A stretch of DNA of 64,000 bases, taken from the sequence record OR192075.1; one strand, written 5' to 3'. The first letter of the stretch is position 1; every line of letters begins with the position of its first letter. A model generated the notes under the pieces. That model saw only the letters and a program-made list of their open reading frames with translations, had not been told where the DNA came from and searched no databases. The DNA comes from Escherichia phage MIZ6. A program made the position numbers and the translations under genes. Positions 28,183 to 28,794 of this stretch are shown here, in pieces.

Positions 28183-28385
28183 TTACATTTAGGGCAATGC
28201 GGTTCTTTAATATAATACCCGTCTGTCTTTGGAACACTAACAGGAGCGGTTTTTATATTGTATTCGGTGAAACAACGAAAACAAGTTACGTTTTCTACAG
28301 ACTGACGTTTCACCCAATCACCGGAATATAGATCATTTTTATTTGTCATATTCAACCACCACAATGTTAATGTCTGGAGTAGCAA
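28155..28385 (-). CDS. hypothetical zinc-ribbon protein
   Basis: 76 aa; CFRC...CPKCKC. Confidence 0.4.
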   Translation of the reverse strand: MLLQTLTLWWLNMTNKNDLYSGDWVKRQSVENVTCFRCFTEYNIKTAPVSVPKTDGYYIKEPHCPKCKCRLYWSHL

Positions 28386-28794
28386 TATTAATGATCTCTT
28401 CTACACATTCCCACTCAAGGCCACCGATACCGCAACCGATTTTAGGAATATAGAAAGGCTGTGTAGCACCTTCAAAAACATCATTGAGAGTCTCAAATCC
28501 TTTCAGGATAGCACCATATTCAGCATTTGGACCCGGTCGGAATTGGGTATAGAGATTCACCCCGCACCAGTTATAACCATTAACTTGATGCGTCCAGACA
28601 CTAAACCCACCCAGCTTTTCGACCTTACCGCGAGAAGTTTGCTTGTCAATCTCTAACGCTTGCGGGAACTCTTTCGCGATCTTTGCAGCAATACCAGCGC
28701 CCATAGTATGAAAACAATTACAACCATGAATTAAATGACCGTTTCCTTGTTTAAACAGGGCGATGAGATCGCCCTTTACAGTATCAATAATCAT
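28339..28794 (-). CDS. macro-domain-like (ADP-ribose binding/processing) protein
   Basis: 151 aa; HGCNCFHTMGAGIAAKIAKEFP and IPKIGCGIGG match the macro-domain glycine-rich signatures. Confidence 0.55.
   Translation of the reverse strand: MIIDTVKGDLIALFKQGNGHLIHGCNCFHTMGAGIAAKIAKEFPQALEIDKQTSRGKVEKLGGFSVWTHQVNGYNWCGVNLYTQFRPGPNAEYGAILKGFETLNDVFEGATQPFYIPKIGCGIGGLEWECVEEIINIATPDINIVVVEYDK

What the first reader, a model, noticed from the sequence alone, without database searches (positions are those of the whole stretch)
28339..28794. Macro-domain-like protein in the early region
The 151-aa protein carries HGCNCFHTMGAGIAAKIAKEFP and a later IPKIGCGIGG segment, matching the two glycine-rich ADP-ribose-binding loops of macro domains. 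A phage macro domain could reverse host ADP-ribosylation (for example DarT-type DNA ADP-ribosylation), regulate phage ADP-ribosyltransferase targets, or degrade ADP-ribose-derived defence signals.
Basis: partly seen in the sequence, partly recalled or inferred. Interest (0 to 1): 0.5.

Follow-up and report, generated by a model that had tools for sequence, protein, structure and literature searches.

The report
Phage Tk.4/AdfM macrodomain, anti-DarT2 candidate

Summary
The ORF is real: 28339-28794 on the minus strand, 151 aa, with both quoted motifs. It is a macro domain by sequence and by predicted fold. It passes the Pfam Macro cut-off. Its AlphaFold model (pLDDT 96) matches TARG1, DarG, Poa1p, BT1257 and SCO6735.

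The window is 99.995% identical to Escherichia phage MIZ2 (Krischvirus, RB49-like). The gene is tk.4, annotated since 2003-2006 as an "A1pp phosphatase". It is 43% identical over its full length to T4 Tk.4 and lies in the same tk...tk.4-vs-vs.1-regB order.

A 2025 preprint renamed T4 tk.4 adfM after showing that its knockout sensitises T4 to DarTG2. The best reading is therefore an orphan antitoxin-like hydrolase that removes DarT2-added ADP-ribose from thymidines in phage DNA. This is inferred and has not been tested in this clade.

One refinement: the family lacks the catalytic lysine of DarG and TARG1. It carries a near-invariant Gln (Q84) and Asn (N26), as in SCO6735, a characterised thymidine-ADPr-DNA hydrolase. 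PhiKZ "AdfM" is a different, Lys-type lineage.

Homologs occur in 2,734 of 50,697 phage records. Verdict: already known, low interest.

The parts
28339..28794 (-). tk.4 / adfM-like CDS, 151 aa, single macro domain
   Evidence: ORF list and translation. Pfam Macro. Annotated 'phosphatase' in MIZ2 and 'tk.4; contains A1pp phosphatase motif' in RB49. 43% identical to T4 Tk.4, E 2e-44. AF2 pLDDT 96.1.
28803..28808 (-). Shine-Dalgarno GAGAGG, 8 nt upstream of the ATG at 28792-28794
   Evidence: Read directly from the sequence.
28663..28728 (-). Residues 23-44: H23-G-C-N26-C motif and Gly-rich loop 1 (M31-G-A-G34-I-A)
   Evidence: H23 in 116/120, N26 in 120/120, G34 in 120/120, A36 in 120/120 homologs. 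N26 aligns with SCO6735 Asn27, which is essential for activity.
28543..28545 (-). Codon CAA = Gln84, at the position of the catalytic lysine of TARG1 (K84) and DarG (K80)
   Evidence: Three independent alignments agree: phmmer, profile, MAFFT. Q in 117/120 homologs, in T4 Tk.4 and in six distant phage homologs. It equals SCO6735 Gln85, whose Q85A mutant is inactive.
28420..28449 (-). Residues 116-125: Gly-rich loop 2 (P117-K-I-G120-C-G122-I-G124-G125). G124 is at the position of TARG1 Asp125.
   Evidence: P117, G120 and G122 are invariant. Position 124 is G or A in every homolog that aligns there.
28339..28349 (-). 11-nt overlap between the tk.4 3' end/stop codon and the ATG of the next small ORF (28155-28349), which indicates a tightly packed polycistronic unit
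   Evidence: Sequence. MIZ2 annotation.

Best explanation
The gene is the Krischvirus (RB49-group) ortholog of T4 tk.4/adfM. It encodes a stand-alone, antitoxin-like macrodomain ADP-ribosylglycohydrolase. It is expressed from the leftward tk-vs-regB gene block, which is early/middle in T4. Its most likely job is to strip the ADP-ribose that a host DarT2 toxin attaches to thymidines in single-stranded phage DNA. That would keep replication going in DarTG2-carrying E. coli.

The active site is not DarG-like in detail. The lysine used by DarG and TARG1 is a glutamine (Q84), held by an invariant asparagine (N26). This is the arrangement of Streptomyces SCO6735, where Gln positions the distal ribose and a backbone-held water is proposed to start hydrolysis.

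Shown here: the ORF, the fold, the orthology and synteny with T4 tk.4, and the conservation of the Gln/Asn/Gly-loop residues. Taken from the literature: T4 tk.4 is needed against DarTG2 (genetics only), and a Gln-type macrodomain (SCO6735) cleaves thymidine-ADPr DNA. Inferred: that this protein has the same substrate and role.
For: - Macro domain: Pfam 27.5 bits against a cut-off of 22. AF2 pLDDT 96.1, pTM 0.90. Foldseek top hits are TARG1, Poa1p, Thermus and M. tuberculosis DarG, BT1257 and SCO6735, all at probability 1.00 and TM 0.72-0.82.
- DarG is the only defence-library and the only NCBIfam model hit: PADLOC DarG E 1.2e-13 and NF048014 E 6e-13, macro part only.
- Orthology to T4 Tk.4: 43% identity over the full length, E 2e-44. 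Same gene order tk...tk.4-vs-vs.1-regB. It is the only macro gene in the phage genome.
- T4 tk.4/adfM is the single significant HIDEN-SEQ hit on DarTG2 hosts, and its knockout is DarTG2-sensitive. Earlier work had shown that T-even phages resist DarTG2 through an unknown factor.
- Active-site residues matching SCO6735 (Gln85, Asn27, Gly126/128) are Q84, N26, G120 and G122. They are conserved in 117-120 of 120 homologs and in six distant phage lineages. SCO6735 cleaves thymidine-linked ADPr-DNA, and its Q85A and N27S mutants lose activity.
- A different phage macrodomain, PhiKZ gp104, removes DarT2 ADP-ribose from DNA in vitro. It is equally acidic (pI 5.05 against 5.30), so net charge is no objection.
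- The phage also carries a homolog of T4 30.3/AdfN, the anti-DarTG1 NADAR enzyme. That fits a layered anti-DarT repertoire.
Against: - No biochemical activity has been shown for any Tk.4-type protein. The T4 evidence is genetic and comes from a preprint.
- Identity to T4 Tk.4 is only 43%, and no Krischvirus has been tested against DarTG in the searchable literature.
- The catalytic Lys of DarG/TARG1 is absent.
- The longer mobile loop with Lys89 that SCO6735 uses on DNA is also absent.
- Macrodomains are promiscuous, acting on protein, RNA and small-molecule ADP-ribose derivatives.
- In some other phages the homolog sits beside NAD+-salvage-type genes. That hints at a small-molecule role for at least part of the family.
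Confidence: 0.65

Rival explanations
1. It reverses ADP-ribosylation of protein or RNA and not of DNA. The marks could be those written by the phage's own Alt-like and Mod-like ADP-ribosyltransferases. They could also be those of other host ART toxins, for example RNA-targeting ones. The protein would then act as a regulator or an anti-toxin for those targets.
For: The phage encodes three annotated ARTs, at MIZ2 26511-27335, 27414-29465 and 87620-88123. SCO6735 and TARG1 also act on glutamate-linked protein ADP-ribose. Papers listed report macrodomains of this class reversing RNA ADP-ribosylation, including on uracil (titles and abstracts only).
Against: The ART genes lie about 100 kb and 40 kb away from tk.4 and are not co-located with it. 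From general knowledge, T4 Alt/ModA/ModB make arginine-linked ADP-ribose, which ARH/DraG-type enzymes remove and macrodomains do not. The only phenotype reported for the T4 ortholog is DarTG2 sensitivity.
Confidence: 0.15
2. It is a small-molecule ADP-ribose-derivative hydrolase, as the deposited annotation 'phosphatase' implies. Candidate activities are ADP-ribose-1''-phosphate phosphatase or O-acetyl-ADP-ribose deacetylase. It would release free ADP-ribose for nucleotide or NAD+ economy.
For: Yeast Poa1p, an ADP-ribose-1''-phosphate phosphatase, is among the top structural and sequence neighbours. It shares the H-x-C-N-C motif: Poa1p H23 aligns with H23 and S30 with T30. In Vibrio phage Cody the homolog lies between a ribose-phosphate-pyrophosphokinase-like gene and a nicotinamide-phosphoribosyltransferase-like gene. 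It is also near such genes in Pakpunavirus PaYy-2 and Acinetobacter phage Rocket. NARP1 recycles free ADP-ribose into NAD+.
Against: This phage has no NARP1-type genes (annotation). No obvious source of ADP-ribose-1''-phosphate exists in a T4-type infection (inference). Poa1p has Ser where the family has its near-invariant Gln, and Poa1p F152 aligns with a Gly. The T4 phenotype is specific to DarTG2. Adjacency to NAD+ genes may simply reflect clustering of counter-defence genes.
Confidence: 0.12
3. It neutralises DarT2, or another ADP-ribose-dependent defence, without catalysis. It could bind the toxin, shield ADP-ribosylated DNA, or sequester or degrade ADP-ribose-derived immune signals such as those of Thoeris.
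For: Catalytically dead SCO6735 (Q85A), DarG and TARG1 still inhibit DarT by interaction. Some macrodomains are readers and not erasers.
Against: The protein lacks the C-terminal DarT-binding domain of DarG. It matches only positions 2-141 of the 329-338-position DarG models. Near-invariance of Q84, N26 and H23 across very distant phages points to a conserved catalytic site. No evidence of any kind links this family to Thoeris signals.
Confidence: 0.06

Closest known systems
T4 Tk.4 = AdfM (anti-DarT factor Macrodomain; bioRxiv 10.1101/2025.11.20.689424)
   Same: Full-length homolog at 43% identity, E 2e-44. Same size (151 against 155 aa). Same genomic slot immediately before vs, in the tk...regB block. 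Same NLYTQF(R/Q)PGPN motif with Gln at the catalytic-lysine position, and the same HGCNCFHTMG motif.
   Different: 57% of residues differ. Loop 2 reads GCGIGGLEW here and GAGIGKGNW in T4. The host phage is a Krischvirus and not a Tequatrovirus. No DarTG2 experiment exists for this clade.
Streptomyces coelicolor SCO6735 and Bacteroides BT1257 (Gln-type ALC1-like macrodomains; PDB 5E3B, 2FG1)
   Same: Best profile-to-PDB matches, E 1.4e-15 and 2e-14. Stand-alone macro proteins. Gln at the Lys position, the Asn that locks it, the His before it, and the GxG loop are all shared. SCO6735 is a proven thymidine-ADPr DNA hydrolase that protects against DarT.
   Different: About 22-24% identity. The window protein lacks the 5-7-residue longer mobile loop with Lys89. 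It is acidic (pI 5.3) where SCO6735 is basic (pI 9.6 for the aligned part). It has HGCNC where they have H(V/I)CND.
DarG antitoxin macrodomain of DarTG2 (Thermus aquaticus 5M31/5M3E, M. tuberculosis 5M3I)
   Same: Same fold, TM 0.73-0.80. The only PADLOC and NCBIfam model hit. Gly instead of TARG1's Asp125 in loop 2, and a short mobile loop. Same presumed substrate.
   Different: No catalytic Lys (Gln84 instead). No C-terminal DarT-binding domain. No adjacent darT. The score is 48.7 bits against an equivalog cut-off of 250.
PhiKZ gp104 'AdfM' (Cell Rep 2026, PMC13309987)
   Same: A phage-encoded orphan macrodomain that counters DarTG2, with the same name and concept. It is acidic and of similar size.
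   Different: Only 24% identical to the window protein. It is Lys-type (FPTKDNW) and scores 133 bits on the PADLOC DarG model against 49 bits here. It is imported into the phage nucleus. It appears to be a separate recruitment of a DarG-like gene.
Human TARG1/OARD1 (PDB 4J5R/4J5S)
   Same: Top Foldseek hit, E 2e-10, TM 0.76-0.82, 28-30% identity. Same length class and the same ALC1-like macrodomain class.
   Different: Both residues of the TARG1 Lys84/Asp125 catalytic dyad are replaced, by Gln84 and Gly124.

Membership tests
Macro domain (Pfam PF01661) | Sequence match above the curated gathering score | tested here: met
   27.5 bits against a cut-off of 22, covering profile positions 1-118 of 118.
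Macro domain (Pfam PF01661) | Three-layer alpha/beta/alpha macro fold | tested here: met
   AF2 pLDDT 96.1, pTM 0.90. Foldseek probability 1.00 and TM 0.72-0.82 to many solved macrodomains.
Macro domain (Pfam PF01661) | Two Gly-rich loops that hold the ADP-ribose diphosphate | tested here: met
   M31-G-A-G34-I-A and G120-C-G122-I-G-G. G34, G120 and G122 are invariant in 120 homologs.
Macro domain (Pfam PF01661) | Binds ADP-ribose | not testable with these tools
   Needs ITC or a thermal-shift assay with purified protein.
T4 Tk.4 / AdfM orthologous group | Full-length homology to T4 Tk.4 | tested here: met
   43% identity, 63% positives, residues 1-150 against 1-152, E 2e-44.
T4 Tk.4 / AdfM orthologous group | Conserved position: immediately upstream of vs in the tk...vs-vs.1-regB block, same strand | tested here: met
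   Annotation tables for RB49, T4 and MIZ2.
T4 Tk.4 / AdfM orthologous group | Only macro gene in the genome (no paralog to confuse orthology) | tested here: met
   tblastn of the protein against the whole MIZ2 genome gives one hit, with all others at E > 5. The reciprocal check on the whole T4 genome was not run.
T4 Tk.4 / AdfM orthologous group | Required for growth on DarTG2-expressing hosts | not testable with these tools
   Shown for T4 only. No Krischvirus data were found.
DarG antitoxin (NCBIfam NF048014, PADLOC PDLC02990) | Whole-protein score above the equivalog cut-off | tested here: not met
   48.7 bits against a cut-off of 250.
DarG antitoxin (NCBIfam NF048014, PADLOC PDLC02990) | C-terminal DarT-interacting domain | tested here: not met
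   The protein is 151 aa and matches only model positions 2-141 of 329-338.
DarG antitoxin (NCBIfam NF048014, PADLOC PDLC02990) | Catalytic lysine (Thermus DarG K80) | tested here: not met
   Gln84 aligns with that lysine in three independent alignments.
DarG antitoxin (NCBIfam NF048014, PADLOC PDLC02990) | Encoded next to a darT toxin gene | tested here: not met
   The neighbours are vs and small phage ORFs.
TARG1/OARD1 | Lys84/Asp125 catalytic dyad | tested here: not met
   Q84 and G124 occupy these positions.
SCO6735/BT1257-type (Gln-type) ALC1-like macrodomains | Gln at the catalytic-lysine position, positioned by a conserved Asn (SCO6735 Gln85/Asn27) | tested here: met
   Q84 in 117/120 homologs and N26 in 120/120, both also in T4 Tk.4 and in six distant phage homologs. 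The role of these residues comes from PMC9411070.
SCO6735/BT1257-type (Gln-type) ALC1-like macrodomains | Extended mobile loop with Lys89 after the Gln | tested here: not met
   The window and T4 proteins have a 5-7-residue gap relative to SCO6735 and BT1257 at this loop. Some distant phage homologs (PaYy-2, muut, Cody) do have a longer loop.
SCO6735/BT1257-type (Gln-type) ALC1-like macrodomains | Hydrolyses thymidine-linked ADP-ribose on ssDNA | not testable with these tools
   Needs a gel-shift assay on a DarT2-modified oligonucleotide.
Poa1p-type ADP-ribose-1''-phosphate phosphatase (the deposited 'phosphatase' annotation) | Residues probed in the Poa1p structures (H23, S30, F152) | tested here: inconclusive
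   H23 is conserved, S30 aligns with T30, and F152 aligns with G124. Poa1p has Ser at the Gln84 position. The Poa1p paper was not available, so the roles of these residues are unknown to me.

The most novel reading that the evidence does not exclude
Tk.4-type phage macrodomains are found in about 5% of phage records and in at least eight phage lineages. They may form a distinct Gln-type clade that phages acquired independently of the Lys-type, DarG-derived PhiKZ 'AdfM'. On this reading they use an SCO6735-like, water-mediated mechanism. Their substrate range may also be wider than DarT2-modified DNA. In phages where the gene sits between NARP1-like ADP-ribose-recycling genes, it might liberate free ADP-ribose to feed NAD+ reconstitution. 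That would link de-ADP-ribosylation to NAD+ recovery.
Probability: 0.25. Interest if true: 0.45.

Novelty: already known. Interest (0 to 1): 0.15.

Why it matters
It matters little as a discovery. The gene has been annotated in RB49 since the first T4-like genome comparisons, macro domains occur in 41% of myoviruses, and the T4 ortholog already has a name and a phenotype.

The practical value is annotation transfer. The label 'phosphatase' in MIZ2, RB49 and many other records should probably read 'AdfM-like macrodomain, putative anti-DarTG2 ADP-ribosylglycohydrolase'.

The one point that may interest specialists is mechanistic. The T4-type AdfM family lacks the DarG/TARG1 lysine and carries the SCO6735-type glutamine. 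The two phage proteins now both called AdfM are therefore different lineages, probably with different chemistry. Inhibitors or mutational analyses designed on DarG would not transfer directly.

Tried and rejected
- Thoeris or signal-degrading role: nothing in sequence, context or literature supports it.
- Link to the phage's own ADP-ribosyltransferases: three ART genes exist but are 40-100 kb away, so there is no operon link.
- True DarG membership: rejected on score, missing C-terminal domain, missing lysine and missing darT neighbour.
- TARG1-type Lys/Asp mechanism: rejected, both residues are replaced.
- Bacterial context of a chromosomal homolog (Pelagimonas P0105): an orphan gene among housekeeping genes with no toxin partner, so uninformative.
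- Net charge as an argument against DNA binding: rejected, because PhiKZ AdfM is equally acidic and acts on DNA.
- Promoter and terminator scan: counts are not above shuffled expectation (18 against 13.3 +/- 3.4; 4 against 2.6 +/- 1.5), so there is no reliable signal.
- dN/dS against RB49: only 5 differing codons (3 synonymous, 2 non-synonymous), too few to use.
- Literature search for DarTG plus Krischvirus: no papers.
- Search for NARP1 plus macrodomain: none of the 10 papers listed mentions NARP1.
- Two paper-reading runs failed because a search term was too short.

Full report
**Observation.** The ORF list shows an ATG-initiated, 151-codon ORF at exactly 28339-28794, on the minus strand. 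The plus-strand reading of the same interval is broken by stops. A GAGAGG Shine-Dalgarno lies 8 nt upstream of the ATG. The gene begins 15 nt after the stop codon of the upstream gene, and its last 11 nt overlap the ATG of the next small ORF. It is therefore part of a tightly packed leftward polycistronic block. A simple promoter/terminator scan gave nothing above shuffled expectation.

**Where the window comes from.** The 5-kb surroundings are 100% identical to Escherichia phages MIZ2 and MIZ3 and 98% identical to RB49 and about 55 other Krischvirus genomes. The whole window aligns to MIZ2 99666-163666 at 99.995%, with no mismatches and three gap openings. In RB49 the gene is named tk.4, 'phosphatase; contains A1pp phosphatase motif'. 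It is flanked by tk and three small ORFs on one side and by vs, vs.1 and regB on the other. MIZ2 calls it 'phosphatase'. The A1pp (macro) match of tk.4 orthologs was already reported in the 2006 comparison of T4-like genomes (PMC1524935).

**Is it a macro domain?** Yes.
- Pfam Macro scores 27.5 bits against a gathering score of 22, across the full 118-position model.
- PHROG 335 matches at E 5.8e-63.
- Single-sequence search of the PDB finds M. tuberculosis DarG macrodomain (5M3I), BT1257, SCO6735, TARG1/OARD1 and Poa1p.
- A 59-sequence family profile raises these matches to E 1e-15 to 1e-11.
- AlphaFold2 with that alignment gives pLDDT 96.1 and pTM 0.90.
- Foldseek against the PDB returns TARG1, Poa1p, Thermus and M. 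tuberculosis DarG, BT1257 and SCO6735 first. All have probability 1.00 and TM 0.72-0.82, and viral nsp3 macrodomains follow.

**Orthology with T4 tk.4/adfM.** T4 Tk.4 (155 aa) aligns over its whole length at 43% identity, E 2e-44. It occupies the same slot directly upstream of vs. The window's phage has only this one macro gene.

A November 2025 preprint found tk.4 to be the single significant T4 gene depleted on a DarTG2 host in a transposon screen. It confirmed that a clean knockout becomes DarTG2-sensitive, noted similarity to M. tuberculosis DarG, and renamed the gene adfM (10.1101/2025.11.20.689424). This answered an earlier observation that T-even phages resist DarTG2 through an unknown factor independent of AdfA and AdfN (PMC11257639). 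No paper in the searchable library connects DarTG with Krischvirus phages. The functional assignment here is therefore by orthology only.

**Active-site anatomy.** Three independent alignments place Gln84 of the window protein opposite the catalytic lysine of TARG1 (K84) and DarG (K80). They place Gly124 opposite TARG1 Asp125.
- Gln84 occurs in 117 of 120 database homologs, in T4 Tk.4, and in six distant phage homologs. Those six come from Pakpunavirus, Felixounavirus, Ackermannviridae, Stephanstirmvirinae, Demerecviridae and a jumbo phage.
- Asn26 is present in 120 of 120 homologs and His23 in 116 of 120.
- Gly120 and Gly122 are invariant in every homolog that aligns there.

The same Gln-for-Lys replacement is found in BT1257 and SCO6735. 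For SCO6735 it has been shown that the enzyme efficiently cleaves thymidine-linked ADP-ribose from DNA and protects against DarT. Its Q85A, Q85E and N27S mutants lose activity. A backbone-positioned water is proposed to start the reaction (PMC9411070).

The window protein thus keeps the SCO6735-type catalytic residues. It lacks the 5-7-residue longer mobile loop with Lys89 that SCO6735 and BT1257 have. It is acidic (pI 5.3), but so is PhiKZ gp104 (pI 5.05), which works on DNA.

**Relation to DarG and to the other 'AdfM'.** DarG is the only model hit in the PADLOC and NCBIfam libraries. The hit covers only the macro part (positions 2-141 of 329-338) and scores 48.7 bits against an equivalog cut-off of 250. 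The protein has no C-terminal DarT-binding domain, no lysine and no darT neighbour. It is therefore an orphan antitoxin-like enzyme and not a DarG.

PhiKZ gp104 was independently named AdfM and was shown in vitro to remove DarT2 ADP-ribose from DNA (PMC13309987). It is only 24% identical to the window protein, carries the DarG lysine (FPTKDNW), and scores 133 bits on the DarG model. The name AdfM therefore covers two different macrodomain lineages.

**Rivals.**
- The deposited label 'phosphatase' reflects similarity to Poa1p-type ADP-ribose-1''-phosphate phosphatases. The H-x-C-N-C motif is shared, but Poa1p has Ser at the Gln position and Phe152 aligns with a Gly. The phage has no evident source of that substrate.
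- The phage does encode three ADP-ribosyltransferases, but they are unlinked. From general knowledge their arginine-linked products are not macrodomain substrates.
- A non-catalytic role is disfavoured by the strict conservation of the catalytic-site residues.
- A role against Thoeris signals has no support.

**Side lead.** In Vibrio phage Cody the homolog lies between a ribose-phosphate-pyrophosphokinase-like gene and a nicotinamide-phosphoribosyltransferase-like gene. Pakpunavirus PaYy-2 and Acinetobacter phage Rocket show similar adjacency. This resembles NARP1, which recycles free ADP-ribose to NAD+. The window's phage has no such genes. This may mean only that counter-defence genes cluster. 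It keeps open a small-molecule role in part of the family.

**Distribution and novelty.** Homologs occur in 2,734 of 50,697 phage records. A published survey found macro domains in 41% of myoviruses (PMC9503650). The gene, its domain, and now the likely function of its T4 ortholog are all in the literature. I rate it 'already known' with interest 0.15. The only added value is the Gln-type/SCO6735-like refinement and the suggestion to update the 'phosphatase' annotation.

**Confidence.**

| Claim | Confidence |
|---|---|
| Macro domain | about 0.99 |
| Ortholog of T4 tk.4/adfM | about 0.95 |
| In vivo role is removal of DarT2 ADP-ribose from phage DNA | about 0.65 |

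Noticed in passing
L014:632-3468 (Vibrio phage Cody); L010:1-1980 (Pseudomonas phage PaYy-2); hit H46 (Acinetobacter phage Rocket): Tk.4-like Gln-type macro genes lie directly beside NAD+-reconstitution-type genes in at least three unrelated phage lineages. In Cody the macro gene sits between a ribose-phosphate-pyrophosphokinase-like gene and a nicotinamide-phosphoribosyltransferase-like gene. This could link the macro enzyme to ADP-ribose recycling or could simply reflect an anti-defence island. None of the 10 papers listed for NARP1 plus macrodomain mentions NARP1.
   Followed up: partly
window 30281-31110, minus strand: Three consecutive small ORFs upstream of regB (64, 86 and 111 aa) are paralogs. 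A against B is 41% identical, E 7.5e-13. A against C is 31% identical, E 9e-5. They share a C(A/S)HL(D/R)...(K/T)W motif. All three are annotated hypothetical.
   Followed up: partly
outside the window: MIZ2 40267-40710 (locus L004), next to the DNA ligase gene: A homolog of T4 30.3/AdfN, the NADAR anti-DarTG1 enzyme (38% identity, E 2e-24), is annotated only as hypothetical. The phage seems to carry both an anti-DarT1 and an anti-DarT2 candidate.
   Followed up: partly
literature: PMC13309987 and bioRxiv 10.1101/2025.11.20.689424: Two groups independently named different proteins AdfM. PhiKZ gp104 is a Lys-type, DarG-like macrodomain. T4 Tk.4 is a Gln-type, SCO6735-like macrodomain. The window protein is 24% identical to PhiKZ gp104; T4 Tk.4 gave only a 23-residue local match to it (30% identity, E 0.005).
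   Followed up: yes
hits H18 and H19 (Escherichia phages vB_EcoM-ECP32 and bov22_2, 133-136 kb); P0006 (phage EduardKellenberger): The closest relatives of the Krischvirus macro protein outside its genus are 67-69% identical proteins in 133-136 kb E. coli myoviruses. They are much closer than T4's Tk.4 (43%), which suggests horizontal exchange of this gene between phage families.
   Followed up: no
L011:1495-2280 (Andreotti, 261 aa); L013:1240-1956 (muut, 238 aa); L012:1426-2031 (heyday, 201 aa): Some Tk.4-like macro proteins carry extra segments of about 50 to 110 residues of unknown function. Felixounavirus and Kuttervirus have C-terminal extensions and Justusliebigvirus has an N-terminal one.
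   Followed up: no
window 31917-32333, minus strand: This 138-aa ORF ends in a glycyl-radical motif (RVSGYAVRF). It corresponds to vs.6, which the T4 record annotates as an autonomous glycyl radical cofactor (GrcA-like). MIZ2 labels it only hypothetical.
   Followed up: no
window 29132-29160, minus strand: The best sigma-70-like site of the region (TTGACA-17-TATGAT, 11/12, with an extended -10 TG) lies inside the first codons of vs. It could give a transcript starting just upstream of tk.4. Site counts in the region are not above shuffled expectation.
   Followed up: no
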